Shown piece after piece: positions 45,562-64,000 of a stretch of 64,000 nucleotides of DNA. The stretch is taken from the IMG/VR virus record IMGVR_UViG_3300012665_000528, positions 1 through 64,000 of that record. One strand, written 5' to 3'. The notes under the pieces are model-generated. The model had not been told where the DNA came from and ran no database searches. It saw only the letters and a program-made list of their open reading frames with translations. A program made the translations under genes and the position numbers. The first letter of the stretch is position 1. The number at the start of each line of letters is the position of its first letter. This DNA is from a virus (taxonomy: Duplodnaviria; Caudoviricetes).

Positions 45562-45863
45562 TACTTATAAGCAATTACACTACCTGAAGAGATAGCAAAA
45601 CCAGTAATCACTCCTCCAGGAAGAAATGCTCCTTGCTTGAAGGTGATAGTACTCATACCATTGTTAGACAACTCAGAAGCACCATTGACAAGAAATTCTG
45701 TGAATACAGTATCTTCTTGTACTACTAGTGCATTGTAGCGTACGTTTGATACAGTACCTGTGCCGTGGCGTTTAAAGCCTCCAGAGCCTACAGAAAGTCC
45801 AGTGTGTGCTGAAATCGCTCTCAAGCGTTTTCCTTGTTCGTTTACTTGTTGATAATTATCCAT
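45561..45863 (-). CDS. Small structural-type protein
   Basis: First gene after the TAAATTTG promoter. Confidence 0.7.
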   Translation of the reverse strand: MDNYQQVNEQGKRLRAISAHTGLSVGSGGFKRHGTGTVSNVRYNALVVQEDTVFTEFLVNGASELSNNGMSTITFKQGAFLPGGVITGFAISSGSVIAYK

Positions 45864-45901
45864 TTTCTTTCGTTATTAAAACCGACTTGCGTCCGACATT
45901 A

Positions 45902-45909
45902 CAAATTTA
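45902..45909 (-). promoter_or_regulatory. Bacteroidota-type -7 element TAAATTTG for the lysis/TCS operon
   Basis: CAAATTTA on plus strand. Confidence 0.55.
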
Positions 45910-45935
45910 AGTTTATTTCTAAATAAGTCAAGTAG

Positions 45936-48900
45936 TTAATCAGGGTCACTAAAAGAACTATCTTCTATAGGTTCTAGTTCTCTTAGTTGGCTTTTAAGAG
46001 TTCTTATCAAGTCTCTAGTGTATTTCTTTTCAGTACGTATAGACTCCTCATAGCTTTCACTCTTCTCAGGTTCTGGAATACGAATACCAGGCATAGCTAC
46101 CTTTAGTAACTTATCTAGTACTTTGCGTGACTCTTGTCCTTCTTTTGCTGCTATCTTCTTTTCTTCTTCGTAATCACGGATAGCATTGTTACTACCTTGC
46201 ATTTCTACTTTAGCTAGCCTTCTTTCTGCCCACTCTAAAAGATTAGTTCTAAACTCTTGTATGTTCTCAGACTGTAAAGCAGTCAAGTCACCTGATTCGT
46301 AGCGTTCAATGTTTCCTAAGTTCCTAGATAATAAACTCTTTTGTAACTCTTGAATTTTAATATCATTCTGAGTGTACTCTCCTAAAGGATCACTTAGGGC
46401 TAACTTTGGATTCAACTTAAGTGTTTGTTGTAAAACTCTTTTAGAGTCAAGCACGGGCTTTAATCCTAACTCTGCTCCGCTAAGTTTAAGTACAGCGGCT
46501 TTCCATCTAGCCAATCCTCTAGTAGGTACTGGAGTATTTGCTATACTTCTACCGCCTATACCACCTCTACGCTGCTCATAGTAGTTCCCAAAAGGATCAG
46601 TCCATAAGTCTGCATCAAACAATACGTTTATTAGTTGGTCAAAGCTTCTTACCTGCTGTCCTACAAGCATATAGGCAATGCCTGTAGCCATATTTTGTAC
46701 TCGTTTGTCTTCATCTCCAGGTTCTGCCATAGGTTGTCTAAACCCAATCTTATAAATCATATTTGCAGTAGCTAGTATCGGATGTAAACTTATGTATTCA
46801 TCATAGGTTCCCAATGCAATAAGTGCTAAGTAAGATAATGTATTGTCATCATCATCACCTCCCATACTACTAAGAACTAAACCTATAAGAGATTGTGCAA
46901 GTACGTGTAACCCTAATACATTTACAGTATCTCTAGCTATTCTTTGATATTTTTCTCTGTCTAGTGGCGTGCTTTTTAAATCTAATCTTTCTCTATGGGC
47001 TAGGTATCGTAGCTTCCTAAGAATTGCCCTACCTCCTGCACGATAAAATCCTTCCTCTACGTTCCCAGTATAAAGACTTAGTCTTTGTCTACCATAGTTA
47101 GTCTGTAGTGAAGGCATCAACCAACGCTTCATACTAAGTAAGAAAGAAGTTAGTACGTTACCCTCATAGTAAGAACGAGTTCTTGTGAAGTAGTTACCCT
47201 GTGTGCTAGTGTAGAGTTCGTGTATCTGGTCTCTTAAGTACTGTTCTACTTGACGTAGCTTCTCTCTCTTTACTTGGTTAGACTCTTCTAGTGACTTAAT
47301 CTTATTGTCGTGCTTTTTAAGTAAGTCATTTAGAGCAATCTTTTTAGGAGTAGACAAGCCCTCATAGTTTGGAACTTGTGCGGTTGCTAGGTAATTGTTT
47401 ATGATTTGTGCACGTTCTACCATCAAACTCCTCATGGCATTCTGCTCTAAACCAAACACACCCTCTTTAGGTACTAGGATGCCGTCTATTACATCGTAAG
47501 CATCTTCTAATTTAATCTGTACTTCCTGTCCGTTAACCATCATAGGTACGGTCATACGTGCCATCAATGCCTCATAGATAGGAATTGTAGAAGACATCTC
47601 TGTATAACCAAACACTTGAGAGTTAAAGTTCTCTAAACTTGCGTACTTATAGATATTACGTTGGTTTACATTGTTTGCTCTTGATGTTGGGTTTGCACTA
47701 GGTAAAGCCCTAAAGTACATTAACTTTAATGCATAATCATTATACTGACGAGACCCATTCTCCAACTGCATTAAAGTAGTATGATTCTTAAGTCCCTTGA
47801 ACCAAGCTTTTAACAACTCTGCTCTAGTTAGTCCATATCTATTTTTAGACATCATAATCTTTAAGAAGTTGTTGAATACGTTCTTAAAGACACGTGTAAT
47901 GTTAAACAGCAAGGCTCTGGTTTGAGTAAACTTAAACAGTCTTCTAAAAGTACGAGACATTATCTTTAAGTACTTGTTACTTGGGTTTCTAACCTGACCT
48001 CCAAAGAAGAATCTACTTATCTCGTTGTCAATAACATCTAAATCATATTGAGGTACTTTAGACTTTACTGGACCCTCACCTTCTAGGGCTTCTCTAGCTG
48101 CAAACATTGCAGGCATAGCTTTTTGTAGTCCCTGAAACTCTGCTGCATACACTCCATAGTTAGCTAACGTCTGAGTTAATAGGTGAGATACTTGGTAAAC
48201 ATTTAAAGGTTGTTTGTACCTAGTCTTAATTAACTGTGCCTTACGACCCTTACCTCTGCTCTCTGCATTTTTATTGGCTTGAATAAGACTAGATTCTACT
48301 TCGTCTATGTCTTCTCCAGGAAGTCCCTCTCTCCATATAAGTTTTATACTATCAGCAAAAGTATGAACTCTTGTTTTAAAGTTCTGCTCACGTACTCTTT
48401 CTTGTCCACTCTTAACTTGGTTGGGTACTACATAACCTCTAAGTCGTTGACTTGAAGGAAGTTTCCTTTGGATGTCTTCGTACAAACCTACTAAATCATC
48501 TACCAAACCTTTGTCTTGAGAATCTAACTTCTCATACTCTAGGTTAGTATACTTGCCGTCAGTGGTTTCTTTGGGTCTTAAATCACCTAGGAAATTATAA
48601 TCTTTGTTCTTGTACTCGTCTCTTACCCTAGGAATAGTCCATTCAAAGCTAGGGTTCTCTTGTCTGATATATTTAGCAGCATCTGTTGGAACAGTCTTAG
48701 TCCAAATGTAAATAGGACGCTCAGTAACTTCCGTAAGTACCTCTCCCGAATCTTTGTCTACTTTATTCCGACTTATGATTATGTGGTTCGCTTGGTACCA
48801 ATCAGTTTGCTTTGTTCTCTTGCTAACTTCCTGAGAATATAAAATACTATAGTAAGCATCTATTAGATTTTTTCTATAGATAGCAGACTTCAGGTCACTT

Positions 48901-51900
48901 AAACTTTGAGCTGTAGGTAACTCATCTAAGGCACTAGGGTCTGAGAAAATATCTACATCTAAATGGTCTCCCTCTGTCTCAATATAGTGGTCAGCCATCT
49001 TCTCAGCTTTATCCTGCATCTCTTGCAGTAATACTGTTTCTGTTGCTAACCCTCCACGTACACTACGTTTAATACTTTCTAAAGCTTCGTAGTAGTAAGT
49101 TGTTTTTTCTTTTGTTTGAAGTGCAAATAACTTTTTAAAGTATCCTCTTAAAAGTAACTTGTCTGCATCACTCATATTACGATTGTCTTCAGCAGCATCC
49201 TTCAACATCTCTATCTCTGCCTCAATGGCCTTAATAGTTTGACTTAAACCTAGTTGTACTGAAGAACCTACTATAACTCCGTCTTGGTCTCTAAAACCTT
49301 TAACAGCATTAAAAAGTCTAGTGTATGCATCTGTAATCTCTGGACTCTCTCCATACTTAACAAACACAGCTTTAATCTGATCAGCAATGGTTTGCTGTGC
49401 TGCAAAGAACTTAGGGTCTATCTCAACCTTAGTGTTACGTGAAATCCACGTAGCTAAATCATTCTGAGCTTGAACTAAATTTGCTTTTTCTTCAAAGAGT
49501 TTTTCTTGAAGAGCAATAGTACTTTGACCTAAAGCTTCAGCATCTGCTAAGTTTATCTCAAGAATATTGATACGAGTCTTTGCTTTACTTACTACTTCTT
49601 TACGACTCGTCTTTTCTATGTCGAACCGTTTTAATACAGCTTCAGGAATAGTAAACTCAACAACGTCTAGGTCTTTTCTTTTCTGCTTGTAGGCAATGAT
49701 AGATTCAGCTATGTTTCTTTCTTTGGTACCTACTGGTTTCTCACTTCCGTCTTCATTGAATATGGAACCTAACCTTTCGTATTGTCTTCTAAGGTCTCCA
49801 CGTATCTTACGGTCTTCTTCTGTACTGTCAACGTCTCCGAATATATCTATGTTCTGTTGGATGTCGTCTAGTAACTCTGTTCTAGCTTGACGTGCTTCCT
49901 CAGACAAAAGTGCTTCTGCTTCATAGTATTCCTCTGTGTATCTACCTACTGCATATCTTTCTTGGAAATCTCCCAATGCTTTTTCTGCTGCAAGTATATC
50001 AGCCTCTATTCCTGACTTCTCCGCTAACTCTAAGTTCTGCTGTAGATCAAGTAGGTCAGAATAAAACTCTGCTTCTTTAAACTTAGTGTTATAGGCTAAC
50101 TGTTTTATTTTAGTTCTTCTTCCCTGCTCATCGTAGTAAATCATATCTACCTCACGAGTCAACCCTTGATAATGGTTACTAACAATCTGACTTGGGTTTA
50201 AGATTCCTTTATTTCTATTCCTCTCTTCTACTCTGCGTTCTATTGCTTCAGCTCTTATAGTTGTAACTTGACTTGAGTTCTCTGCCTCTGTCAAATGGAC
50301 ATCTAGGAATTGTTTAAGTACTTGAACCATAGGGCTACCAGAACCTGTAGCTATACCCATATAAACAGAAAATATGTTACCCCCTTTGTATCTAGGGTCC
50401 ATACCATTCTGCAATAGATTTTTTATATTCTCCGTAGTAGGAACCCAACTTAACAACTGCTCTAAGTTCTCTACGTCAGAAGTAAAATCTTTAATTCTTT
50501 TAGGTTCATTCCTTGCTACTGCATCTGCTAGGGCTTCTCTCTTAGCAGTTAATTGTTGGTTTAGTTGACTGTCAGGTGCTTTTATCTTATCTGCCATAAG
50601 TCTAAAAGACTTTGACAACTCTACTGCAACAGGAGTCAACATAGCATCTTGTGCTACTTGTCTAAGTTGTTCTGCCTTACTACGTAGATTTAATAACTGC
50701 TCGGTTAATTGCTTAACTGTTGTATCGTAATTTTCAATCTGTCTTCTGCGTTCATTTTCAAAGTCACCTTTTTTATATGGATCTTCTTTGAACTGATCCA
50801 AAGTAATATTCATTGTTAACTCTGGCAACAAGTTAGTCTGAAAGTTTATTGCCTGTTCTTGGAGTAACTCTGCAAGATTTTTAGTATAGTTAAACTGCTT
50901 GATAGCTTCAGCAGCTGTAAACTGTGCTAGATTATTGTTTGTGGTATTTGTATTTCTTTGTACCCTATTCAATAATTCTGTTAAAGTATTAATGTAATCT
51001 ACCGATGATGTTATTATATCTGCTACACCTGCAGTAGATACGTTACCTAGTTTTTGTTTGATTCTTTCTATAGAACCAAAACGAGGATCTATTTCAGACA
51101 AAGCCTGGGACATTTGTGCCCAAGTAGAACTGTTTAAACTTTCTCGTACGAATGCTTGGAACTTACTTAAATCTACTGCAGCAGGTGTTGGAACTGCACT
51201 AGTGTAGGGAGCATTAAACCTTAACTGATGCTCTCCTGCTAAGTCAGGCATATCCTCTAAACTTTCTAAGTAATCAAAGTACTCGTTTAAGGTAGTGTCT
51301 AAATCATTTAAAGATACGTTTGTAAACTGACCCTTTAAAAATCTTTTTATAGTTGCAACAAGTCTTCCTAGTAAGCCAGTATTCTTAGCTTTCTGTTCTG
51401 CGTCTTGCAGGTCTTCTCTAAAATAAGGATTAGATAGATACTCACTTACAAACTCTTCAGTATTCTTAAACCCATAGTTATTCTGAAGTAAAGGAAAGTT
51501 ACTTCTGTATTGGGATAGATACCTATCCATCTCTTGAGAGAATTGTATCTCTGCAGGAGTTTGAGGGTTAGTCAAAGCGTGGATAGTGTATGCGTGTAAG
51601 GTCTCGTGAATAAGCTCCCTTACAAAACTTTTACTATTAAAGTCAGATGAAACTGTCTTACCTACGTATACCGTGTTGGTTTTAGGATCATAGAAAGACC
51701 TCTGATACTCGTCTGCTACAGTGGCATCATCAAATACTACCAACTTTAAAGTTGGATTAATTCTAAGTAAGCTACTAAGTCTGGTTAAGATTTCCTTCTG
51801 GAAGTTCTCTATCTCCCCGCTATTAACAACTCCGTCAATAAGTTCTTTTAACTGTGCATTAGAAAAATCCTGCACGCTGTTGACTATCAAAGAAGGAAAC

Positions 51901-52952
51901 TTTACTTTGTTTAAGTATACTTTACTTACAGGCTTTAATGGCTTTTGTGCTGGAGCAGTTGAAAGAGATTTGTTATCTGCTGAGTCAAGTACTTTTACTT
52001 GCTCTGGATTAAATACAATAAACTCAAGTGCCTTATTCAAGTTCAACAAATCTCTGTTGTCACGGCCTTTTACATTATTGTTTATGTTTTGATTCTTAAT
52101 GTACTCATCTATCGCTAGACTCTCATCTGTACTTACAGGTACATACCTATCGTACCTATACTCAGGGTGAGTTATTACACCATCGTATCCAGCATCTTTT
52201 AACTTTTGTATGTCTGCTTCTTTTCTTATCTCATTGTTTGCAGCGTAGTATGGATTCTTGATATTTAAAACTGCTCCATACTTAGTAGCACCATACTCAG
52301 AGAACATTTCAACATTCGGAGTAAAGAATAAACCTGTAGGTCGGCCTTCTGTAAATCTAGTTGCAGGTTCGTTTGTATTGTTGTAAACTACAATAGCATT
52401 TCCGTCTGCATCCGCAACAACAGAATCTTTTGTAAACTCGATGTTATCACTCTCTATAGTACGTTTGTCTAACCTCTGCTTAAACTCTAAGGCGTTCTGT
52501 GTAGTAGGGATAGCTGGTTTAACTGATAGATAATATTTACCATCACGAGCTACTACCTCACTTGTAATTAAATCATACTTAGGATTTAGATTAATCTCTT
52601 CGTGGATAAACTCAAAGGCATTGGGATTTGTATACCCTATGTTCAAGTATCCCAAGGAAGCTACCTCTTCTATTTGTTCTGCTGACCTAATCTCTTGGTC
52701 AGTCATATTCAATCTAAGATGTTTGTTAATCTCTTGTATGCTAGGCTCTCCTACAAAGTTTAACTTAGGACTATATCCTAGCTGTTGCTTTGTCCAGTCA
52801 AAACCAAACTCTGTTTTAAATGTATTTGTAGTCAGTGCTTCATAAATACTCTTACCTTGTGCAGGTGGGAAGAATGAAGTCAACTGATAGTATGCAGGGC
52901 TTGTAACTTGAAGACCTGACAGGGGGGATTTTATGGTAGCAAAACAAGACAT
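45936..52952 (-). CDS. Giant virion cargo (polyvalent) protein with ART-like and zincin metallopeptidase domains
   Basis: VVADADGNAIVVY..GLFFT..LNIKNP..GYDGVI..EFIVFNPEQVK; ELIHETLH..EEFVSE; hydrophobic helices near the C-terminus. Confidence 0.85.
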   Translation of the reverse strand: MSCFATIKSPLSGLQVTSPAYYQLTSFFPPAQGKSIYEALTTNTFKTEFGFDWTKQQLGYSPKLNFVGEPSIQEINKHLRLNMTDQEIRSAEQIEEVASLGYLNIGYTNPNAFEFIHEEINLNPKYDLITSEVVARDGKYYLSVKPAIPTTQNALEFKQRLDKRTIESDNIEFTKDSVVADADGNAIVVYNNTNEPATRFTEGRPTGLFFTPNVEMFSEYGATKYGAVLNIKNPYYAANNEIRKEADIQKLKDAGYDGVITHPEYRYDRYVPVSTDESLAIDEYIKNQNINNNVKGRDNRDLLNLNKALEFIVFNPEQVKVLDSADNKSLSTAPAQKPLKPVSKVYLNKVKFPSLIVNSVQDFSNAQLKELIDGVVNSGEIENFQKEILTRLSSLLRINPTLKLVVFDDATVADEYQRSFYDPKTNTVYVGKTVSSDFNSKSFVRELIHETLHAYTIHALTNPQTPAEIQFSQEMDRYLSQYRSNFPLLQNNYGFKNTEEFVSEYLSNPYFREDLQDAEQKAKNTGLLGRLVATIKRFLKGQFTNVSLNDLDTTLNEYFDYLESLEDMPDLAGEHQLRFNAPYTSAVPTPAAVDLSKFQAFVRESLNSSTWAQMSQALSEIDPRFGSIERIKQKLGNVSTAGVADIITSSVDYINTLTELLNRVQRNTNTTNNNLAQFTAAEAIKQFNYTKNLAELLQEQAINFQTNLLPELTMNITLDQFKEDPYKKGDFENERRRQIENYDTTVKQLTEQLLNLRSKAEQLRQVAQDAMLTPVAVELSKSFRLMADKIKAPDSQLNQQLTAKREALADAVARNEPKRIKDFTSDVENLEQLLSWVPTTENIKNLLQNGMDPRYKGGNIFSVYMGIATGSGSPMVQVLKQFLDVHLTEAENSSQVTTIRAEAIERRVEERNRNKGILNPSQIVSNHYQGLTREVDMIYYDEQGRRTKIKQLAYNTKFKEAEFYSDLLDLQQNLELAEKSGIEADILAAEKALGDFQERYAVGRYTEEYYEAEALLSEEARQARTELLDDIQQNIDIFGDVDSTEEDRKIRGDLRRQYERLGSIFNEDGSEKPVGTKERNIAESIIAYKQKRKDLDVVEFTIPEAVLKRFDIEKTSRKEVVSKAKTRINILEINLADAEALGQSTIALQEKLFEEKANLVQAQNDLATWISRNTKVEIDPKFFAAQQTIADQIKAVFVKYGESPEITDAYTRLFNAVKGFRDQDGVIVGSSVQLGLSQTIKAIEAEIEMLKDAAEDNRNMSDADKLLLRGYFKKLFALQTKEKTTYYYEALESIKRSVRGGLATETVLLQEMQDKAEKMADHYIETEGDHLDVDIFSDPSALDELPTAQSLSDLKSAIYRKNLIDAYYSILYSQEVSKRTKQTDWYQANHIIISRNKVDKDSGEVLTEVTERPIYIWTKTVPTDAAKYIRQENPSFEWTIPRVRDEYKNKDYNFLGDLRPKETTDGKYTNLEYEKLDSQDKGLVDDLVGLYEDIQRKLPSSQRLRGYVVPNQVKSGQERVREQNFKTRVHTFADSIKLIWREGLPGEDIDEVESSLIQANKNAESRGKGRKAQLIKTRYKQPLNVYQVSHLLTQTLANYGVYAAEFQGLQKAMPAMFAAREALEGEGPVKSKVPQYDLDVIDNEISRFFFGGQVRNPSNKYLKIMSRTFRRLFKFTQTRALLFNITRVFKNVFNNFLKIMMSKNRYGLTRAELLKAWFKGLKNHTTLMQLENGSRQYNDYALKLMYFRALPSANPTSRANNVNQRNIYKYASLENFNSQVFGYTEMSSTIPIYEALMARMTVPMMVNGQEVQIKLEDAYDVIDGILVPKEGVFGLEQNAMRSLMVERAQIINNYLATAQVPNYEGLSTPKKIALNDLLKKHDNKIKSLEESNQVKREKLRQVEQYLRDQIHELYTSTQGNYFTRTRSYYEGNVLTSFLLSMKRWLMPSLQTNYGRQRLSLYTGNVEEGFYRAGGRAILRKLRYLAHRERLDLKSTPLDREKYQRIARDTVNVLGLHVLAQSLIGLVLSSMGGDDDDNTLSYLALIALGTYDEYISLHPILATANMIYKIGFRQPMAEPGDEDKRVQNMATGIAYMLVGQQVRSFDQLINVLFDADLWTDPFGNYYEQRRGGIGGRSIANTPVPTRGLARWKAAVLKLSGAELGLKPVLDSKRVLQQTLKLNPKLALSDPLGEYTQNDIKIQELQKSLLSRNLGNIERYESGDLTALQSENIQEFRTNLLEWAERRLAKVEMQGSNNAIRDYEEEKKIAAKEGQESRKVLDKLLKVAMPGIRIPEPEKSESYEESIRTEKKYTRDLIRTLKSQLRELEPIEDSSFSDPD

Positions 52953-52958
52953 TATTTA

Positions 52959-52966
52959 CAAATTTA
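52959..52966 (-). promoter_or_regulatory. Bacteroidota-type -7 element TAAATTTG
   Basis: 6 nt upstream of ATG 52952. Confidence 0.6.
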
Positions 52967-52984
52967 ATCTATTTAAGAACTAAA

Positions 52985-53596
52985 TCAAGGTGCTTCACAA
53001 CTCGTCTCCTCAAACCCTATACTACTAAGGTCTGGAGCATCGGCAGCACTGGTCTTATCTAAAGACAAAGTAAGCTGTAAGGGTTGTTGTTTCAGAGGAG
53101 CTTGGTATACTGGAGTATCAACTATTTCATAGGAAGTTTCTGTTACCTCAAACAAACTCTCTTCTAAATCGTTAAGCTCTTGTAAGGCAAGTGCTGAGTC
53201 TTCATTATAAAAACCCTCTGGTCTGTAGTTTACAGGTATCTCAAAAGCTTCTTGTAGGGATAACTCTTCGTACTTTACTTGATAAGAAGTAAACAACTGA
53301 GGCGTAATATAGATTTGAATTGCTGCTCCATCCTTATAACTTACTCCCCCAAAGACAGAGCCGAACTTAGCTCTAGGTATATTTAACTGGTTAGCTATTG
53401 TTGCAGCAGCCCTATTAACTATACTTCTTACTTTACTTACTGTATCTCTTGTTGACTCCTTAGTATTTAAAGGTAAGAATATTTCCCCTGTCCGTAGTAA
53501 TCTAAAGTCCTTATTCTCTACTTGTGCAATCGTAACTGCTTCGGGAGTTATCTGACTTTTGATTGTTTGAAATGATACTTTACATGCTTGTGCCAT
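52985..53596 (-). CDS. Small protein between the giant cargo genes
   Basis: 203 aa; Cys only at positions 5 and 200. Confidence 0.8.
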   Translation of the reverse strand: MAQACKVSFQTIKSQITPEAVTIAQVENKDFRLLRTGEIFLPLNTKESTRDTVSKVRSIVNRAAATIANQLNIPRAKFGSVFGGVSYKDGAAIQIYITPQLFTSYQVKYEELSLQEAFEIPVNYRPEGFYNEDSALALQELNDLEESLFEVTETSYEIVDTPVYQAPLKQQPLQLTLSLDKTSAADAPDLSSIGFEETSCEAP

Positions 53597-53600
53597 AGTC

Positions 53601-56600: not shown

Positions 56601-59600
56601 ATCTGCTTCTTCTTGTGTAACAAACTTATCTACAAGTAGATTGTTGATACTTTCAAGTAACTCATCAATCTCTATATTCAAATCATTGATGTCGTCCTTG
56701 ATGTCTTGACGTTGTTGGTAGATAGGATTCTCACCTATCTCTGCACGCATCTCTTGTTGGATAGCTTTTAATCTAGCTGCACTTATCTTTAACTCTTTTT
56801 GTCTAGACAACTGGTCGGTGTACTCTTGTACGTCAAACTCCCTTTGAATCACTTCTCCTGACTCGTCTAAAGCGGTCATAAAGAAAGTTAACTTATCAAT
56901 GTCGTAGTCACCTCCTGTTTTAGTTACTATCTGTGCAGGAAGAATCATTACTGCACCTGCAGATTCGTCAAGGAACTCCCTTACGATAGCATACTCCATT
57001 TGAGAAAAGTTTCCTACTGGAATACGAACTCCCACCATAGTAAGTTTATCTTGATGCAGTTCTTTCCAACTAGTGGCAGCTTGAGTATCAGAGGTCAAAA
57101 TACTATTCAACGTCTGAAGTGTTCCTATCCTCTTGCCTTCGTACGTTAGATTAAGTAATGCCCCATGCTTCTTAGGATTAAACGAAATCATAACCTCCAT
57201 AGGATCTGTCTCTCCTGTAGTAGGATTAAGGGTGTAAAACTTAAGACTGTTTGCTCCGTAAAGTTTTAGTTGCTCTTGAGTAGGGTTGGCAAATCTTAAT
57301 CTCTCTAATCCTGTACCAGCCACTTGAATAAAACTATCTCCATTGATTTTCTGAGAAATGATTTTATTGTTGAAGATGTTTAGGATAAGAGATTCAATCT
57401 CTGCTCTATCGTTGTTTGCATCTAAAGGATTAATAAAGTTACCTGCATCATCTACTTTAATGTAGTTACGTAAACCGTCAGAAACTTCCTTCTCTTCAAA
57501 CTGCTCTGCAATAAATCTAGCCAACTGAAGCTGATTGATATCTTCAATCACTCCGTTAGTTCTAGTTATGCCTAACTTCTTTTCTAATTTGATTGTCTCA
57601 AACTGTACTAAGTTGTTTAGTTGTCCTGTAAATTGACTGTATAAATTACCAATACTTGCTTGGGTCTCTGGACTAAAGTCTTGTGATATTGTTCCAAACT
57701 CATAGAAGTCCCCAAACAACAACTTCATCATCTGAGTTGCTAACGTACTTTCTTCCTTGTATTTAGGAGCTTGGTACTGCTGCTCACGTAGGTTTTCTAT
57801 ATGAATAGTAGTAACTAAACTATCGTCTATAGCTTGTTTTACTTCTAAATATTCTATGCCATTGCGTGTTACTTTCTCATAAAAGTCAGAAGGCTCTGCG
57901 TTGTCAGACATCTTAGAACCTGACTTAAACGTAAAGTAATTTACTTGACCATTATACATAACAACCATCTGCTTCTCCATTTGTCTACCTTCTACCACAC
58001 TAGGTATCATAGGTATTAAAGAGAACTTATGTAATGCTACTTGCTTAGGGTCTCTTTCTGTAGGACCAAAGTGACCTAACTTTAACGGAGGAAAGGGAGA
58101 CAAACCAGTAGAATTGATTAGGTTTGTTTTCTCTCTTATTAACTCCTGACTGTTTGTAGGGTTGTTGCGTAACTCTTGATTAATTTCTGCTATACGGACT
58201 TGCTGATGATAAGCTTTTTCCTGCTTGTCTGCATCCCATCTACCAATACTAATTAAATAGTTTCTATAAAAGTCAAGTGTAACTACTCCTTGTGCATCTG
58301 CTTCTTTAGGATTGTTTACATAAGCGTCAAACTCTGTTTTCTCTTCTGCAGTTAATGAATCCCAGTTGCCACTATCGTAGACTTGTTTGTAATTCTCAAA
58401 GTCACTCTCACTAAAAGTAAGTACATCTTTGTAAACAACTGTACGAACTACAGGATTAAATTTATTCTCAACTCCCGTATATGCTACACTTAAAGCATCT
58501 TGCCAAATGTCAGCATCAAAGAAATCTTGTAACGCAGCGTCCCAGAATACAGGACTACCTGGAGATGCTGCAAATGCAGGTCGTTTAAACAACTCTCTGT
58601 AATCTGCTTTAACATTAAAGTTAGACATATCTCCGATAAAGAACTTTAAAAATTCTACATTGTTGATGAAGGCATTCTTTAACATTACTTGTACTAAGTA
58701 AGGAAGATTCTCACCCGTAATAACAGGTGGATTTTTTCTATCGGCAGCTGGTAGTAACTGAGCGTTAATCATATTTAACCGAGTCAATGATGCTGCGGTT
58801 TGTCTTAAACGTTCTCCTTCTGATATTGTCTGTCCTGTAAATAAACTTACGGGAGTTGATAATATATCTACAATGTTTTGTGTTAACTCAGCACCTTTAT
58901 CTGCAAAGTAAGTAGCTAACGACTGAGGTAATGCAGCTACAGCTTTGTGGTATCCAGCTATAAGAGCTTCTTTGGTAGTTGCTTGTGTAATTTCCTGTAC
59001 AATGTCTGCAGGTAGAATATCACTAAAGATGAATAGGTTCCTAGCATTTTTATTATAAGTAGTCTTTACTGCAGTATCTCCCTCTTCTATTGCATTTGAT
59101 ATCCTAGTAACTTCTGATATTAAATAATTCTTGAATGCATTAACCAACTCTGGCTCTACGGGTATATCTGTAACAGGTTGTTTAATAAGACCAATGTTGA
59201 TAGGTACATAGATTTTTTCTGCAAGAATAGGATTAGAAAAACTAGTACTAAAAGAAGCCGTCTTATCTCCAAAACGCATGTTCTCTATCTCTGTAGATTG
59301 AAAGAAACTAACAACGTCTTGAATGATTTTATCTCCAGGATGTAGATTGGTTGTATGACCGCCAAAGTTATCTGACTCAAAGTCTTTAAGTTCTAGACCT
59401 CCAAAGTCAGTTACATTGATTGTACGTGGTCCTGTAGTCTTGTCTACGACTTTACTATAACTACTTAATGGATTCTTTTCTATCTCTGCTTTAGTTAAGG
59501 GTAATCCAAACAAACGGTTTAACCAAATAGATCCAAGCATATCTGGATTTCTTCTATAGTCAAAGCGAGCATAGGCAGGTTGGCTTATTAGTTCTTCGTA

Positions 59601-61709
59601 ATTCTTAGCTTTGTTTACTGCGGCAGCTTGTTGAGTCATAAATGACCAAGGAGAACGTATAAACTTTTTCTTCTGTTCTGCAGTTGTGTATGCTGTAGGT
59701 CTAGACTCTACCTCAAAACTTGAAAAGAACTTAGTAAAAGGATTTAACTCTGTCTCTTTCTTTTGTAAGTACGCAGTAGCTTTTGTTACATCGTAACTTA
59801 CTACTCTATCTGCAACTGCTTTCTTAAGAGCCTGTGAGATGCTACTTACGTCTACTCTCCAGTTCTTAAAAGAAGTTGTCTCAGTACCTGCAATACGTCT
59901 GTCAATAAAACTTTCAACTAAAGCTTCTTGCAGTGAAGATACCTCATAGCCTCTTTCTTTAATCTTCTCAAGTGCTTCTTCTTTAGTTGTACTGAAAGAA
60001 ATAATCTTATCAATCAAGTCATCAGCTTCTGCAAGTTCTACCGCATTCATGCTTGCTTGACCTGTCTTAGTAATATCTAGAGTTCTAGGTATCTTTCTGC
60101 CGTCAGGAAAGGTACGTGTGTCAGTACCAATAATATAGGTAAGAGGTCTATAAATTTTAATCTGATCTGCAGGATCTAAGTTGGCATTGATAGCAGCAGT
60201 TACACGTAACTTCTGGAAGATAGTTGTTAACTGTGAAAGGTTATCAACTATAAACTTTGTAGTCAAATCTTTGTTGGTAGCTCTTAGGTAGTCTTGGTTA
60301 TTTAAACCTAATCCAAGGTCTTGTAAAAAAGTCAACAAGGCAGCCATGCGGTTATCTGTCATGTACAGATTCATGTCACTCTTCCTTGCTAACCCAGCTG
60401 CTATGTTCTTAAATGTCTGTTCGTAATTTGCAACTAAAGCTGCTACGTTTAAGTACTGCTCACCTTCTTCATCAATAAGTTTATACTTTGGTCTGTATAA
60501 AAAGTATTGTCCATCATATTGACTTAGAATATTGCGTACGTTTTGGAAGCCTTTCTTCTGCATCGTACTAGCAATTACTCCGTTATCCTTAACCGAGATA
60601 TCAATTACATTAGAAACTACTTCGGGGTTGCTTAAAATACCTTTAAACGCAGACACCAAGACCATCTTCTTAATATCCTTTGTAGATCCTTTTACTGTAG
60701 GATCTGGCATCTCGGATAATAGATACTCAAACTGAGGATACTTCTTAGAAAGATTAAGTATAATATCATACATCTCAGGGTAAGTATTAATACCTGATAA
60801 TTTGTCACTTAGAATTTTCCAGTTCTTTAGGAAGTCTCCGCTCTTAGGTAGTCCTAATAAATTACCCTCTACCTGAATAGCATTACCTGGACGTACTAAC
60901 CCTCCCTCTACTTCACTACGTAGTGAATTCCTATAGGAAGGTAGTGCTGTTACTAATGCAATGACTGCACTCCCTGCTCTTTCTATTTGTGACTTCTCTT
61001 TAGTTCTCCAATCCTCAGAATCTTCGTTCTTTACTTCAAGTTCTTCTACACCAACAATTCCTTCTTGAGACAAATACCAGTCTACAAACTTGTCAAAGTT
61101 CTGTATAATTTTTTCTAGGTTAACAACCTTTGCGAGGTCTCCCTCAAACTGCCTATTCTCTTGGAACCTAGAAAGTATCTCATTCCTTTTGTCTACTAAA
61201 CCTGTAAAGACTGATGTCCAGTTTTTACCATAACCTACTAAGAACTGAAAGGTATCATAAATCTCTTGTGCTTCTTCAGGTGCAAAGTGTATAGGAGTTA
61301 CGTTACCATCAATCTCAGCATCAAAAAAGTTGATAGCCATACTACTAGGAGTATTGATAGCAGCTTTAATGCGTTCTTGTAATTCTCTAACACGTTGTCT
61401 TTGTTTCTCTTGAGAGTCAACTACTTGATCTACAGAGTATCTGCCTTCAGCATCGGCAACATATTGATTTTGAAAGTTCTTCTGTAAAGTACGAGCTACT
61501 AACTCTAAGGCAACCTTTCTATTACCTTGTGTAATTGGATGAACCATTAAAGCCTCATAAAGAGGATTGTCTATTACCTCATCACCGACTTTAATTTTAT
61601 CCAGGGGTTGTTCATTGTTCTGTGTCCATACATAATATACAGCAGAGGGGGTTAGAAACTCTAAGTATTCTTTCTCGTAATCAGTACCTTTAATGCTACA
61701 AGCGTTCAT
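53601..61709 (-). CDS. Virion-packaged crAss-type RNA polymerase (single polypeptide) with C-terminal accessory domains
   Basis: TGGDYDIDKL metal-binding motif at 56892-56915 preceded by VGVRIP; EADAQG and LHKFSL segments; 2702 aa. Confidence 0.9.
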   Translation of the reverse strand: MNACSIKGTDYEKEYLEFLTPSAVYYVWTQNNEQPLDKIKVGDEVIDNPLYEALMVHPITQGNRKVALELVARTLQKNFQNQYVADAEGRYSVDQVVDSQEKQRQRVRELQERIKAAINTPSSMAINFFDAEIDGNVTPIHFAPEEAQEIYDTFQFLVGYGKNWTSVFTGLVDKRNEILSRFQENRQFEGDLAKVVNLEKIIQNFDKFVDWYLSQEGIVGVEELEVKNEDSEDWRTKEKSQIERAGSAVIALVTALPSYRNSLRSEVEGGLVRPGNAIQVEGNLLGLPKSGDFLKNWKILSDKLSGINTYPEMYDIILNLSKKYPQFEYLLSEMPDPTVKGSTKDIKKMVLVSAFKGILSNPEVVSNVIDISVKDNGVIASTMQKKGFQNVRNILSQYDGQYFLYRPKYKLIDEEGEQYLNVAALVANYEQTFKNIAAGLARKSDMNLYMTDNRMAALLTFLQDLGLGLNNQDYLRATNKDLTTKFIVDNLSQLTTIFQKLRVTAAINANLDPADQIKIYRPLTYIIGTDTRTFPDGRKIPRTLDITKTGQASMNAVELAEADDLIDKIISFSTTKEEALEKIKERGYEVSSLQEALVESFIDRRIAGTETTSFKNWRVDVSSISQALKKAVADRVVSYDVTKATAYLQKKETELNPFTKFFSSFEVESRPTAYTTAEQKKKFIRSPWSFMTQQAAAVNKAKNYEELISQPAYARFDYRRNPDMLGSIWLNRLFGLPLTKAEIEKNPLSSYSKVVDKTTGPRTINVTDFGGLELKDFESDNFGGHTTNLHPGDKIIQDVVSFFQSTEIENMRFGDKTASFSTSFSNPILAEKIYVPINIGLIKQPVTDIPVEPELVNAFKNYLISEVTRISNAIEEGDTAVKTTYNKNARNLFIFSDILPADIVQEITQATTKEALIAGYHKAVAALPQSLATYFADKGAELTQNIVDILSTPVSLFTGQTISEGERLRQTAASLTRLNMINAQLLPAADRKNPPVITGENLPYLVQVMLKNAFINNVEFLKFFIGDMSNFNVKADYRELFKRPAFAASPGSPVFWDAALQDFFDADIWQDALSVAYTGVENKFNPVVRTVVYKDVLTFSESDFENYKQVYDSGNWDSLTAEEKTEFDAYVNNPKEADAQGVVTLDFYRNYLISIGRWDADKQEKAYHQQVRIAEINQELRNNPTNSQELIREKTNLINSTGLSPFPPLKLGHFGPTERDPKQVALHKFSLIPMIPSVVEGRQMEKQMVVMYNGQVNYFTFKSGSKMSDNAEPSDFYEKVTRNGIEYLEVKQAIDDSLVTTIHIENLREQQYQAPKYKEESTLATQMMKLLFGDFYEFGTISQDFSPETQASIGNLYSQFTGQLNNLVQFETIKLEKKLGITRTNGVIEDINQLQLARFIAEQFEEKEVSDGLRNYIKVDDAGNFINPLDANNDRAEIESLILNIFNNKIISQKINGDSFIQVAGTGLERLRFANPTQEQLKLYGANSLKFYTLNPTTGETDPMEVMISFNPKKHGALLNLTYEGKRIGTLQTLNSILTSDTQAATSWKELHQDKLTMVGVRIPVGNFSQMEYAIVREFLDESAGAVMILPAQIVTKTGGDYDIDKLTFFMTALDESGEVIQREFDVQEYTDQLSRQKELKISAARLKAIQQEMRAEIGENPIYQQRQDIKDDINDLNIEIDELLESINNLLVDKFVTQEEADVLVGIRKEKKKIARKFAELGKLDRENSFEALSILAEVRKDIKEVKSEIAVVDNFKKSLHNELINTIKGVLKTGELYDSLTTPNNNSILTQYVKPGKKITSTDVFNPMTSWRIFLENILSKDALGIDAKINTLQKEFQRAGLTYTSSLFNSYYFRANRNAEGQIMLGGKKDAVGKNRISKVLSEFVNGHVDIANEDWIILLGLNEQTSPLAHAMILAGTPVEDILDFLNSDVIKLALTISDRAEVHKKLSDVFVSKNSAILALIKNNIPKAGNKNLEKFVASIEAEIKTAGIKGSKPKLAIYIEKMLGIPTLSQYITNFNPSAELSAEDKAMRNIAYLLQFGVVVAQQGGLRELTSISDFNTTNYRTSFQSTDTVAKEGGLKENFNVDAIDFMFNKSALAQFNVSGFVQEIMGKIYPLSDSTEVHETINTFLDKNSIVGQEDRIKAIKRLKTNLLFNYTQKTATNEKGNLLDYYRGKNGVMQKTNPNNLAKRFEVLISDPDFNRNYVVQNLYPEIHLSGEINFKLKNVVVPETNKLYRTAFLEGLNSSIPEVKEFFTDLALGSFMQYGGHFNTDNVSAIVPHEAYIEFTTKSHNELETMRKEEPQKFKSYLTLVRYATKMFSTTLSPITTSIDFLARTNPEKLKTMRLQDSVVKSLITLERSVYSPESMPTEATQPSTSVDEFNLADKLTPIAQNFADGQGGQMQPQFKGKSTMDLIISGDRTRTTRANTDIQRMSKDYGLSKISDLVGKVIRMTDKTGRQVYTRITKVTPFTQEYQDATWQKEGWVKSVTDKNVGQYPYAIEFEVVNKPTQPSITVQGFQGYQGGFENTGKGTPQGDGKDKAMRQVANVFIGELSKNGKGSTLTSAKEIAQKQGEEPNTSGARYLDGDKNKYVNEIDSASIKLKGQSLVVMLARNGKLAGQVLSAETKRKIKVLSEQGATFVVGDMPNVDSQFIDYLQEIGAKFTIYHTGATPRIQVSQSSTTPNQNDINNLPNINPCG

Positions 61710-61712
61710 TTT

Positions 61713-64000
61713 TTAACAAGTTTTAGGATTAATATTATCAGGTGTTTTGTCTCCATCCCCTAAGCCAGTTCTACCTAACTCAGAGTTAATATCAAAGCCT
61801 AGCGAAGATAACACATTTAATGTGCTTTGTGAATTTGCCCCTCCTAGTTCAGGTATATTTTCTGTGATACTGTTTATACCTGCAGTAGTGGTAGACTCAA
61901 TAGGTTTAACAGAAGACTCAACAGCCGCTATATCTTTGTATAAATTTGAAATATTACTTATAGCCTGTTCGTTAAGAAGGTCTACAATATTACTTGGTAA
62001 ACTTCCATTGTCTTCTATCATAGCAAATGAATAGCCATCCCTACCCGAAGTTCTAGCACCTACATCTTGAATTATACGTAACGCTACTAGTACGTATTTT
62101 TTGCCCTTTCTTTCTACAGTAGTTGAAAATGACTTGTTGCTATTTATTTGATTCATCACATTCACGTCACTTCGTATGTCAAATGATGAGTATGACACTC
62201 CTTGAAATCCTTCCCGTAAACCACTAAGTATAACTTCCTTACTTATATCAATTGAAGGTGCTACAGCAGCAGTAGGTTGAGTAGTAACTACAGGAGTAAC
62301 TGTAGTAACTGGAGCAGCAGCAGGTTGAACAGCCACTTGCTCTTGAGGAGTATTGGTTCTTGCTTTAATCTGCTTGATGACTTGGAAGTCATATCCTAAA
62401 CTAATAATCTTATCTGAGATAGGACTCTTGTGCTTCTCTACGATAGGTGCTTTGTTAGATGCTAGAGTTAATCCTTTTATTGTTATAACTCCTGGCTTAA
62501 CAAATAAGCTTCCTTCGTTTTCGTTTAAGTAGTTATGCATAGCTAAGAAAGTCTTACTATCATACTTACTGAACTTTGGATTCTTACCATTCCACATAGA
62601 TTTAATAAACCATCCATTGGTAGCAAACCCAGTAATAGGAGTCCACTCACCCTCAGACTCTGCACCAGTACCTGTGCCTGTTGATTTATACACTAGGAAA
62701 TGTTCTCCTCCTGCAAATACATCTACCATTCTACGACCTGATACCTCTGCACGAAAACTACCTATAGTCCAAGGTGCACTTTCGTTGTCAAGTTTTTGTC
62801 CTAAGTCAAATAGTTTCTGAGTCTCTGCATTTACTAAGAAGGCTGAACCACTTGAGCCATCTATCTTTTGATTTATCCAAGGATTAAATATACTTGGTTT
62901 GTTTTGTGCGTCTTGTGTAACTACTACTTCTACGTTACTGCCTACTGTTTTAGGGTTGTTTTGTACTCCAGGTATCTGTGGTGCTTTAGGTTGACTAGCT
63001 GTATCAGGGATACTACTCTCTTCGTACTCTGATGCAAATGCTAGAATGTTAATTGATGCAGGAGACAAATCAAAGTCCTCACTAAGTATAGCGTAGGTCG
63101 ATTGTTGTATGCCCCACTTAGATATTGCTGAAGGATATCTAGGATGCATCAAGTACATGCTGTCAGTAAACTTCTGAAGTGTGTTAAACTTCTTGTTCTT
63201 GAAGTCAATGATGTGCGTATTACCTTCCGTGTCCACGGCTACAATATCCATAGCTCCAGCTACTCCAAAGAATCCTGTGGCATCTTTCTCTTCTTGAGTA
63301 AACTCACGATGCACAATCAATCCTTCTGTAAATACTTGCCAGCCTTTGTCTGTAAGTTCTTTTGCTACTGATTGCATCTCTGCAACTAAAGCATTAAACT
63401 GCTCAGGAGTAATTGCTAACTCGTATCCTTGCTTTCCTCTGAGGGGTTTGTTCATCTCACGGGCTTCAGCTAAGTAATCTTTAAGTGACTTAACAGGCTT
63501 GCCTCCTAAGATATCACGACCTAAAATATCTACAAAGTTTCCTACAGCTGCACCCATCTCCATGTTACGAGTACTGTCTTCTGTATCTACTCTTTTCTCT
63601 CCTAATACCCTTTGAACAAATCTTGATTGACGTTCATATCTATTACCATTGATAACATATCCTTCTTTACTAGGATCTCCAATGGCTTTAGACTCTTCTA
63701 TGAGTTTTCCTAAAGCAGCTACTGTACTTGCTTGAGTTTTAACTTTAGGCATAGATAGCTGCTCTTTTATCTTAGCTGCTTCTTTCTGAGCAGTAGCAGT
63801 AGGATAAGACATAGTAGGCATAATGTCAGAGTTATTAAACTCTATCACATAACCAGAGTTTTGATTAATGGTTTGTCCAGGGTTGTTTGGATCTTCAATA
63901 GTCTTTATCTCTTGTGCGTAAGGAATACTCACTAAAGATACTTGATGTTTTACTCTACTCCCTACTACTAATTGTTTTCTCATAGAATCAAATTGTTGCT
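61713..64000 (-). CDS. C-terminal part of another giant virion cargo protein with a PD-(D/E)xK nuclease domain (5' truncated)
   Basis: Frame stays open beyond ATG 63983 to the window edge (QQFDS-M); GAMDIV...IIDFK. Confidence 0.8.
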   Translation of the reverse strand, partial: QQFDSMRKQLVVGSRVKHQVSLVSIPYAQEIKTIEDPNNPGQTINQNSGYVIEFNNSDIMPTMSYPTATAQKEAAKIKEQLSMPKVKTQASTVAALGKLIEESKAIGDPSKEGYVINGNRYERQSRFVQRVLGEKRVDTEDSTRNMEMGAAVGNFVDILGRDILGGKPVKSLKDYLAEAREMNKPLRGKQGYELAITPEQFNALVAEMQSVAKELTDKGWQVFTEGLIVHREFTQEEKDATGFFGVAGAMDIVAVDTEGNTHIIDFKNKKFNTLQKFTDSMYLMHPRYPSAISKWGIQQSTYAILSEDFDLSPASINILAFASEYEESSIPDTASQPKAPQIPGVQNNPKTVGSNVEVVVTQDAQNKPSIFNPWINQKIDGSSGSAFLVNAETQKLFDLGQKLDNESAPWTIGSFRAEVSGRRMVDVFAGGEHFLVYKSTGTGTGAESEGEWTPITGFATNGWFIKSMWNGKNPKFSKYDSKTFLAMHNYLNENEGSLFVKPGVITIKGLTLASNKAPIVEKHKSPISDKIISLGYDFQVIKQIKARTNTPQEQVAVQPAAAPVTTVTPVVTTQPTAAVAPSIDISKEVILSGLREGFQGVSYSSFDIRSDVNVMNQINSNKSFSTTVERKGKKYVLVALRIIQDVGARTSGRDGYSFAMIEDNGSLPSNIVDLLNEQAISNISNLYKDIAAVESSVKPIESTTTAGINSITENIPELGGANSQSTLNVLSSLGFDINSELGRTGLGDGDKTPDNINPKTC

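What the first reader, a model, noticed from the sequence alone, without database searches (positions are those of the whole stretch)
45936..63983. Cysteine daisy-chain: ~6000 aa of virion cargo with Cys only at adjoining termini
Seen (manual reading of the four translations, codons checked at the junctions): the truncated cargo protein has one Cys, its last residue (DNINPKTC*). The 2702-aa RNAP has two (MNAC..., ...PNINPCG*). The 203-aa protein has two (MAQAC..., ...TSCEAP*). The 2338-aa protein has one (MSC...) and none at its C-terminus, where the block ends. So every gene junction offers a C-terminal Cys facing an N-terminal Cys, and two tails share NINP(x)C. Established: crAss-like cargo proteins are packaged in the head and are thought to be ejected unfolded through the tail. 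Inference: terminal disulfides or metal clasps link the proteins head-to-tail into an ordered chain for packaging and sequential ejection, released in the reducing cytoplasm; the 203-aa protein would be a linker. Alternative: the termini are a shared packaging signal.
Basis: partly seen in the sequence, partly recalled or inferred. Interest (0 to 1): 0.88.

Follow-up and report, generated by a model that had tools for sequence, protein, structure and literature searches.

The report
Terminal cysteines chain crAss cargo proteins
Four neighbouring virion proteins of this crAss-like phage, its injected RNA polymerase among them, total 7,766 residues with only six cysteines, one at each end that faces the next protein; relatives keep this rule, which points to end-to-end disulfide links that I found in no paper on these phages.

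Summary
Observation confirmed and extended. The truncated first protein is 2,523 aa in the full contig, and its only Cys is its last residue. The chain is A (2,523 aa) - B (RNA polymerase, 2,702 aa) - C (203 aa) - D (zincin protein, 2,338 aa). It has six Cys, all within 5 residues of an inner end. The two outer ends have none.

The rule is conserved:
- 99 of 103 B hits have a Cys in the last 9 residues; internal Cys density is 0.016%.
- 19 of 19 A relatives have only a C-terminal Cys.
- 29 of 30 D relatives have Cys3 and no C-terminal Cys.
- All 7 full-length C relatives have both.
- Over 197 distinct gene junctions in 46 loci, tail Cys and head Cys go together (53 both, 133 neither, 11 one-sided).

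Fused forms lack the pair at the fusion point. crAss001 keeps the rule although gp47 lies on the opposite strand, so it is not a DNA-level artefact.

In cyanophage A-4L the same signature (gp27 Cys-3, gp26 Cys5) is a disulfide seen by cryo-EM. The bond itself is untested in crassviruses. The papers I searched and read do not describe it there.

This scan has noted the same pattern before on other DNA: 62 notes in at least 56 genomes.

The parts
61713..64000 (-). Protein A, C-terminal 761 residues in the window. The full gene is 61713..69284 of the contig, 2,523 aa. It is the gp47-like first member of the chain, and its only Cys is the last residue.
   Evidence: The A-family profile hits crAss001 gp47 at E 1e-7.
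61716..61718 (-). Codon of A Cys2523 (TGT), the last residue; tail motif ..DNINPKTC.
   Evidence: 19 of 19 A relatives have a Cys at -1 to -5, and none has any other Cys.
53601..61709 (-). Protein B, virion-type RNA polymerase, 2,702 aa, with Cys4 and Cys2701 only.
61698..61700 (-). Codon of B Cys4; head motif MNACSIKGT.
   Evidence: C4 is invariant in alignment A2.
56895..56909 (-). DYDID catalytic motif of the RNA polymerase (residues 1601-1605).
   Evidence: It corresponds to DFDID of phi14:2 gp66 (preprint 10.1101/2020.03.07.982082).
53607..53609 (-). Codon of B Cys2701; tail motif ..NLPNINPCG.
52985..53596 (-). Protein C, 203-aa adaptor. It has a globular domain (about residues 8-118) and a disordered tail, with Cys5 and Cys200.
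53582..53584 (-). Codon of C Cys5; head motif MAQAC.
   Evidence: invariant.
52997..52999 (-). Codon of C Cys200; tail motif ..IGFEETSCEAP.
   Evidence: invariant. The same tail ends the RNA polymerase in relatives that lack gene C.
45936..52952 (-). Protein D, 2,338 aa, the gp49/g065-like last member. It has Cys3 only and no Cys at its C-terminus.
52944..52946 (-). Codon of D Cys3; head motif MSCFATIKSP.
   Evidence: C3 is invariant in alignment A1.
51594..51608 (-). HETLH zincin motif of D (residues 449-453).

Best explanation
The four proteins are the RNA-polymerase cargo block of a divergent crAss-like phage: A is gp47-like, B is the virion RNA polymerase, C is a small adaptor, and D is the zincin-bearing gp49-like protein.

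Each inner end carries one reactive thiol. In the particle, the C-terminal Cys of one protein most likely bonds to the N-terminal Cys of the next, A-B, B-C and C-D. This would make the four polypeptides one linear thread of 7,766 residues, a post-translational stand-in for the single fused polyprotein that some relatives encode.

Two features keep such a thread workable. Each Cys lies within a few residues of a chain end, so each joint leaves only a short stub and the thread stays thin enough for the tail channel. Internal Cys are purged, so no wrong pairs can form.

The tether would keep the block together in fixed order and 1:1 ratio during storage and ejection. The reducing host cytoplasm would then release the free polymerase.

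Shown here: the pattern, its conservation, the pairing, and its loss on fusion. Shown elsewhere: a disulfide with the same signature in phage A4, and disulfides in crAss001 virions. Inferred: the bond in crassviruses, the time it forms, and its role in ejection.
For: (1) Pattern in the window and contig: 6 Cys in 7,766 aa, all at inner ends.

(2) Conservation:
- B hits: 99 of 103 have a Cys in the last 9 residues and 76 of 103 in the first 9; internal Cys density is 0.016% against about 10% per terminal position window.
- A family: 19 of 19 have a tail Cys only.
- D family: 29 of 30 have a head Cys only.
- C family: 7 of 7 full-length relatives have both.

(3) Pairing: 35 of 35 junctions in the first 15 genomes examined are paired. 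One of these has its tail Cys at -18, and two in L007 span inserted genes. Over 197 distinct adjacent junctions in 46 loci the counts are 53 both, 133 neither, 7 tail only and 4 head only, giving an odds ratio of 252. The junctions are not phylogenetically independent.

(4) Fusion and split:
- Relatives without gene C have the C-type tail directly on the polymerase and no Cys at the place of the B|C joint.
- Polymerases with the NLPxxxPC tail are always followed by a C-family protein.
- A+B fusions have no Cys near the fusion point; these are P0088 and P0089, four further long forms that lack an N-terminal Cys and have no internal Cys at all (their A-like part was not tested), and the 4,401-aa protein of Fpv1.

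(5) Not a DNA artefact: in crAss001 and DAC15 the first member is encoded on the opposite strand, and the rule still holds. In L007 a homing-endonuclease gene sits inside the block without breaking the pairing.

(6) Precedent: A-4L gp27 (1,717 aa, sole Cys at -3) and gp26 (1,114 aa, sole Cys5) are joined by a disulfide seen by cryo-EM (PMC12002296).

(7) Disulfides do exist in crAss001 virions, and gp47, gp49 and gp50 are packaged cargo thought to pass the tail partly unfolded (PMC10172136).

(8) The tail of C is predicted to be disordered, and the head Cys precedes the first helix.
Against: - No direct evidence of a bond in any crassvirus.
- Assembly takes place in a reducing cytoplasm, so the bond could form only after packaging or release.
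- Gut phages live at low redox potential. The disulfides seen in crAss001 were in virions whose purification conditions I did not check, so they could have formed in air.
- No thioredoxin-fold or Erv1-type oxidase was found in the 76-kb contig, which is about 65% complete. The Erv1 search rang in no control genome, so it says little.
- Head and tail sequences differ widely between lineages, and I found no complementary motif or charge pattern specific to Cys-bearing ends.
- Parity alone also allows other pairings.
Confidence: 0.58

Rival explanations
1. The ends are joined through a bridging metal ion (a clasp) rather than a disulfide. The architecture and purpose are otherwise the same.
For: Acidic residues often flank the tail Cys, as in GFEExSCE and DPC. 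The link would not need an oxidant, which suits an anaerobic habitat.
Against: There is only one Cys per end. No CxxC or His partner is conserved. The distance from the terminus and the flanking residues vary freely, which is unusual for a metal site. The only solved case with this signature is a disulfide.
Confidence: 0.12
2. The terminal Cys do not bond to each other. They are part of packaging or ejection signals, or they attach each protein to another virion part such as the portal, inner capsid or tail.
For: Heads and tails are short conserved peptides within a lineage (MNACSIKGT, MSCFAKIKSP). Other crAss001 virion proteins use disulfides.
Against: A signal would not be missing precisely from the first N-terminus and the last C-terminus. 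It would not vanish in pairs at fusion points, or appear in pairs at a split. The other virion genes upstream in this contig have no Cys to pair with.
Confidence: 0.12
3. Different pairing: the middle proteins close on themselves (B Cys4 with Cys2701, C Cys5 with Cys200), and A pairs with D.
For: The Cys parity of the window allows it.
Against: It would require partners to change whenever genes fuse or split, whereas the chain model removes or adds one joint only. In A4 the pair is between neighbours.
Confidence: 0.05
4. The thiols serve a ligation or processing chemistry, an acyl shift at the tail Cys and attack by the head Cys, which makes a true peptide bond between the proteins.
For: Only the geometry: a Cys close to each end.
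Against: No intein-like or other catalytic module lies next to the ends. Pfam finds nothing there, and heads and tails share no domain. The head Cys is never residue 2, so it would not become N-terminal through removal of the initiator Met alone.
Confidence: 0.03

Closest known systems
Cyanopodophage A4 (A-4L) ejection proteins gp27 and gp26, joined by the disulfide Cys1715-Cys5 in the pre-ejectosome (PMC12002296)
   Same: The upstream giant protein has its only Cys 3 residues from the C-terminus, and the next gene's product has its only Cys at position 5. The two are bonded in the virion. Both are internal proteins ejected into the host.
   Different: There is no detectable homology to A, B or D. 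It is one joint, not three. It belongs to an ordered five-fold core on the portal of a T7-like phage. No RNA polymerase is involved. The paper states no general rule.
RNA-polymerase cargo block of cultured crassviruses: crAss001 gp47, gp50, gp49 and phi14:2 g067, g066, g065 (PMC10172136; preprint 10.1101/2020.03.07.982082)
   Same: B, D and A are homologous to gp50/g066, gp49/g065 and gp47 respectively. The DxDxD and HExxH motifs are present. The same terminal-Cys rule holds. These proteins are detected in virions.
   Different: The window's phage is distant, about 22% identity in the polymerase core. It has a fourth member, the 203-aa adaptor. The two papers do not mention the cysteines.
Cys-free ejection proteins of Schitoviridae: N4 gp50, DEV gp71, gp72 and gp73 (PMC11445570)
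   Same: Giant virion RNA polymerase and companions with strong suppression of Cys. That paper cites an earlier suggestion that this reflects passage through the periplasm.
   Different: Those proteins lack Cys altogether. Here one Cys is kept at each inner end.
Fused polyprotein forms of the crAss RNA-polymerase block (noted in the phi14:2 preprint; Fpv1 4,401-aa protein)
   Same: The same modules in the same order act as one unit.
   Different: They are joined by peptide bonds. In the window there are four separate ORFs, and two of the three junctions are out of frame.

Membership tests
Crassvirales virion RNA-polymerase cargo block | Giant protein with the DxDxD catalytic motif, homologous to phi14:2 gp66 / crAss001 gp50 | tested here: met
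   DYDID at residues 1601-1605, invariant in alignment A2. tblastn hits to crAss-like polymerases reach E 2e-18. The profile hits g066 at 5e-17 and gp50 at 5e-15, collinear. A smaller profile found nothing in the PDB at E 0.001 or below.
Crassvirales virion RNA-polymerase cargo block | Downstream zincin (HExxH) protein homologous to gp65 / gp49 | tested here: met
   HETLH at residues 449-453, with H449, E450 and H453 invariant. The D profile hits g065 at 3e-27 and gp49 at 4.5e-13.
Crassvirales virion RNA-polymerase cargo block | Upstream giant protein homologous to gp47 / g067 | tested here: inconclusive
   The A profile hits crAss001 gp47 at E 1e-7 in a database of eight proteins, but does not hit phi14:2 g067. 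Position and size agree.
Crassvirales virion RNA-polymerase cargo block | The proteins are present in the virion and enter the host | not testable with these tools
   Known by mass spectrometry for crAss001 and phi14:2 only.
Disulfide-linked consecutive ejection proteins (A4 gp27-gp26 type) | A Cys near the C-terminus of one protein and near the N-terminus of the next, with otherwise Cys-free proteins | tested here: met
Disulfide-linked consecutive ejection proteins (A4 gp27-gp26 type) | The disulfide is observed in the particle | not testable with these tools
   Needs gels, mass spectrometry or cryo-EM.
Disulfide-linked consecutive ejection proteins (A4 gp27-gp26 type) | Sequence homology to gp27 / gp26 | tested here: not met
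   Profiles of A, B and D give E above 0.2 against both proteins. This is an analogue, not a relative.
Split inteins / protein trans-splicing | Intein halves flanking the junction | tested here: not met
   Only 2-6 residues precede the head Cys, and 0-8 follow the tail Cys (one exception at -18, in L005). There are no Pfam hits and no shared head or tail domain.
Single read-through polyprotein | The genes lie in one frame, joined by read-through of the stops | tested here: not met
   Only A|B is in frame. B|C has a 4-nt gap and C|D a 32-nt gap. In crAss001 the first member lies on the other strand.

The most novel reading that the evidence does not exclude
Crassviruses, and by convergence at least one T7-like cyanophage, build a redox-gated delivery thread. 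Separately translated giant proteins are stapled head to tail by single disulfides into one linear chain of 7,000-9,000 residues. The chain is threaded through the tail in gene order and is cut into active enzymes by the reducing cytoplasm. Gene fission and fusion would then be neutral, because a Cys pair replaces the lost peptide bond.
Probability: 0.4. Interest if true: 0.88.

Novelty: new variant of a known kind. Interest (0 to 1): 0.8.

Why it matters
How crAss-like phages, the most abundant viruses of the human gut, store about 0.7-0.9 MDa of cargo protein and deliver it through a narrow tail is an open question (PMC10172136; PMC13434306).

A covalent end-to-end tether would fix the order and ratio of the ejected proteins. 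It would explain why the block is freely split or fused in evolution. It also gives simple tests: non-reducing gels, cross-link mass spectrometry and Cys-to-Ser mutants.

It also offers a sequence signature for finding chained ejection proteins in uncultured phages: Cys-free giant proteins with one Cys at adjoining ends.

Tried and rejected
- Close relatives of the 203-aa protein were not found in viral contigs by peptide patterns or in the phage collection by tblastn. They were found later by the exhaustive HMMER search and in neighbouring genes of related contigs.
- PHROGs and Pfam gave no useful family for A, B or C.
- PDB profile searches with alignments A1 and A2 gave nothing.
- The model of C has no fold match in the PDB by Foldseek.
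- hhalign of the first 110 and last 90 residues of the four families found no shared head or tail module. The only match was the C-type tail on some polymerases.
- Charge complementarity was tested and dropped. Tails are acidic (-1.9), but Cys-free C-termini are too (-2.1).
- A phage-encoded oxidase was sought in the contig. The thioredoxin fold gave no hit. Erv1 gave no hit either, but that control rang nowhere, so the result is uninformative.
- Literature searches found no description of the rule in crassviruses.
- The DNA-level explanation, a junction motif that happens to encode Cys, was rejected because of the opposite-strand arrangement in crAss001 and DAC15.
Full report
**1. The observation**

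All four ORFs lie on the minus strand. Scripted translation gives these Cys positions:
- B, 53601..61709, 2,702 aa: Cys4 and Cys2701.
- C, 52985..53596, 203 aa: Cys5 and Cys200.
- D, 45936..52952, 2,338 aa: Cys3 only.
- The ORF that runs off the window: one Cys, its last residue.

The window is bases 1-64000 of a 75,916-base virus record. In the rest of the record the first protein, A, is 2,523 aa. It has that single terminal Cys and none at its N-terminus. The four genes upstream of A (three complete ORFs of 551, 194 and 728 aa and a 610-aa ORF cut by the contig end) have no Cys at all.

So 7,766 residues hold six Cys, each within 5 residues of an end that faces the next protein. The two outer ends are bare. 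Codon positions were checked. The other ORFs of the window mostly hold 0.5-5% Cys.

**2. What the proteins are**

- B matches crAss-like virion RNA polymerases by tblastn at about 22% identity over some 500 residues. It carries an invariant DYDID motif. A profile of its relatives hits phi14:2 g066 (5e-17) and crAss001 gp50 (5e-15) collinearly.
- D has an invariant HExxH motif, and its profile hits g065 (3e-27) and gp49 (4.5e-13).
- A weakly hits gp47 (1e-7).

The block is therefore the RNA-polymerase cargo block of a divergent crAss-like phage. Its counterparts are virion proteins by mass spectrometry. They are thought to pass the tail partly unfolded (PMC10172136).

C has no family in PHROGs or Pfam. 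Its model shows a compact domain (residues 8-118, pLDDT about 90) followed by some 85 disordered residues that end in the Cys tail. It has no PDB fold match.

**3. Conservation**

- B: of 103 proteins related to B (2,000-4,650 aa, down to about 23% identity), 99 have a Cys in the last 9 residues and 76 in the first 9. Internal Cys number 54 in about 336,000 residues, or 0.016%, and 78 proteins have none.
- Positions: head Cys lie at positions 3-7, tail Cys at -1 to -8.
- A: all 19 relatives have a tail Cys, no head Cys and no internal Cys in 46,659 residues.
- D: 29 of 30 relatives have Cys3, the exception being an N-terminal fragment. None has a tail Cys.
- C: all 7 full-length relatives from an exhaustive search have both Cys. 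C5 and C200 are among only 15 invariant columns.

**4. Pairing**

In ten related metagenome contigs the first giant protein has only a tail Cys, the middle ones have both, and the last has only a head Cys.

The same holds in cultured phages:
- crAss001: gp47 (-3), gp50 (5, -9), gp49 (5).
- phi14:2: g067 (-1), g066 (3, -2), g065 (3).
- DAC15: gp61, gp63, gp62.
- Fpv1: a 4,401-aa fused protein (-2) followed by a 1,596-aa protein (3).

That gives 35 junctions in 15 genomes, all paired. One has its tail Cys at -18 (L005). Two, in L007, span inserted genes.

A further scan of viral contigs with the D alignment gave 35 loci. All 30 with a visible junction have Cys on both sides or on neither. The four distant loci whose zincin protein lacks a head Cys also lack a tail Cys upstream.

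Over all 197 distinct adjacent same-strand junctions in 46 loci, the counts are 53 both, 133 neither, 7 tail only and 4 head only. The odds ratio is 252 and Fisher p is 3e-35. This is descriptive only, because the loci are related. The one-sided cases inside cargo blocks are the -18 case and a block interrupted by inserted genes, among them a GIY-YIG endonuclease gene (L007).

**5. Fusion and split**

Relatives P0005-P0007 (52% identical polymerase; contig L003) have no gene C. Their polymerase runs from the conserved AKFTIYHTG..RIQ domain straight into the C-type tail (..LTL.LD..LGFEE.SCE..) and is followed directly by D. There is no Cys where the window has ..NINPCG stop and MAQAC.

Conversely, polymerases ending in NLPxxxPC are followed by a C-family protein and then D.

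P0088 and P0089 are A+B fusions. The A profile matches P0089 at residues 55-943 (its near-twin P0088 gave no significant hit), and position 26 of the B profile falls at about residue 2,204 in P0088 and 2,211 in P0089. They have no Cys near that point. Four other long forms that lack an N-terminal Cys, and so are probably fused, have no internal Cys at all.

A Cys pair thus appears exactly where a peptide bond is missing.

**6. Artefacts excluded**

In crAss001 and DAC15 the first member is encoded on the opposite strand, so junction DNA cannot explain the pattern. Only one of the three junctions in the window is in frame, so read-through is excluded. No intein-like module exists.

**7. Mechanism**

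The best reading is one disulfide per joint. The points in its favour:
- There is a single Cys per end, with free spacing and free flanking residues.
- Internal Cys are purged, which avoids wrong pairs.
- Cyanophage A-4L is a direct precedent. I verified from its genome that gp27 (1,717 aa) has its only Cys at -3 and gp26 (1,114 aa) its only Cys at position 5. Cryo-EM shows these two bonded in the pre-ejectosome (PMC12002296).
- Disulfides are present in crAss001 virions.
- N4-like phages purge Cys from their ejection proteins completely (PMC11445570), so the retained terminal Cys here are the special feature.

The role in ordered ejection, 1:1 packaging and release by cytoplasmic reduction is inference.

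The points against:
- Assembly occurs in a reducing cytoplasm.
- The gut has a low redox potential.
- No oxidase gene was found in the incomplete contig.
- No motif or charge complementarity specific to Cys-bearing ends was found.

**8. Novelty**

Neither the crAss001 atlas nor the phi14:2 preprint mentions these cysteines. Five library searches found no description. The one solved example is in an unrelated podophage and was not generalised.

Earlier notes of this scan report the same rule in at least 56 other genomes. One of them gave me the A4 lead, which I checked. I tested the claims of these notes independently here.

What this window adds is the four-member form, with a conserved adaptor family, and a clean split/fusion polymorphism at the B|C joint.

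Noticed in passing
window 34471-39477 (+): A 1,668-aa ORF with no Cys at all and no PHROG family. It lies at the end of the plus-strand gene block. Possibly another virion or ejected protein.
   Followed up: partly
window 52956-52967 and 45899-45910 (-): Exact 12-mer TTAAATTTGTAA a few bases upstream of the start of D (4 nt) and about 35 nt upstream of the next gene. From my own knowledge it fits the Bacteroidota -7 promoter element TAnnTTTG. This would suit late genes read by the host polymerase.
   Followed up: partly
window 45936-52952 (-), residues 181-323 of D: Weak match to ART-PolyVal (ADP-ribosyltransferase of polyvalent proteins), E 6e-6 and 27.5 bits, below the 31.2-bit cut-off.
   Followed up: no
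proteins P0004-P0103 (relatives of B): The giant proteins carry varied inserted enzyme domains according to precomputed Pfam: AlkB-like dioxygenase, NADAR, zeta-toxin/AAA_33 kinase, PIF1-type helicase, YkuD, RNase H and ART-PolyVal. They resemble a swappable payload on a common scaffold.
   Followed up: no
L007:23811-24296: A GIY-YIG homing-endonuclease gene (161 aa, no terminal Cys) is inserted between the adaptor and the last chain member. The first chain member is separated from the polymerase by five genes.
   Followed up: partly
L004:145-594 and L008:4139-4711: A small DUF6321 protein ends in ..RRWKC in two distant phages, but the next protein has no head Cys. This is a conserved terminal Cys with no evident partner.
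   Followed up: no
L039:1-9900: The polymerase gene is broken into three ORFs (1,332, 210 and 630 aa), probably by sequencing or assembly errors. Cys occur only at the true ends.
   Followed up: no
L046, L048, L050, L053: Distant giant proteins share the zincin region of D but have no terminal Cys, and the proteins upstream of them have none either. These may be unchained or fully fused forms in other phage groups.
   Followed up: no
window 45561-45863 (-) and L004, L005, L008, L016: A conserved protein of about 100 aa just after D ends in ..SGSVIAYK (a variant..SGSLIAYNA, in L005; not in L004). In L004 and L005 it carries an adjacent Cys-Cys pair; in the window, L008 and L016 it has none.
   Followed up: no
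own contig 71645-73831 (L002): The 728-aa gene upstream of the block contains a masked or undetermined stretch, read as XXXX. The record is rated about 65% complete.
   Followed up: no
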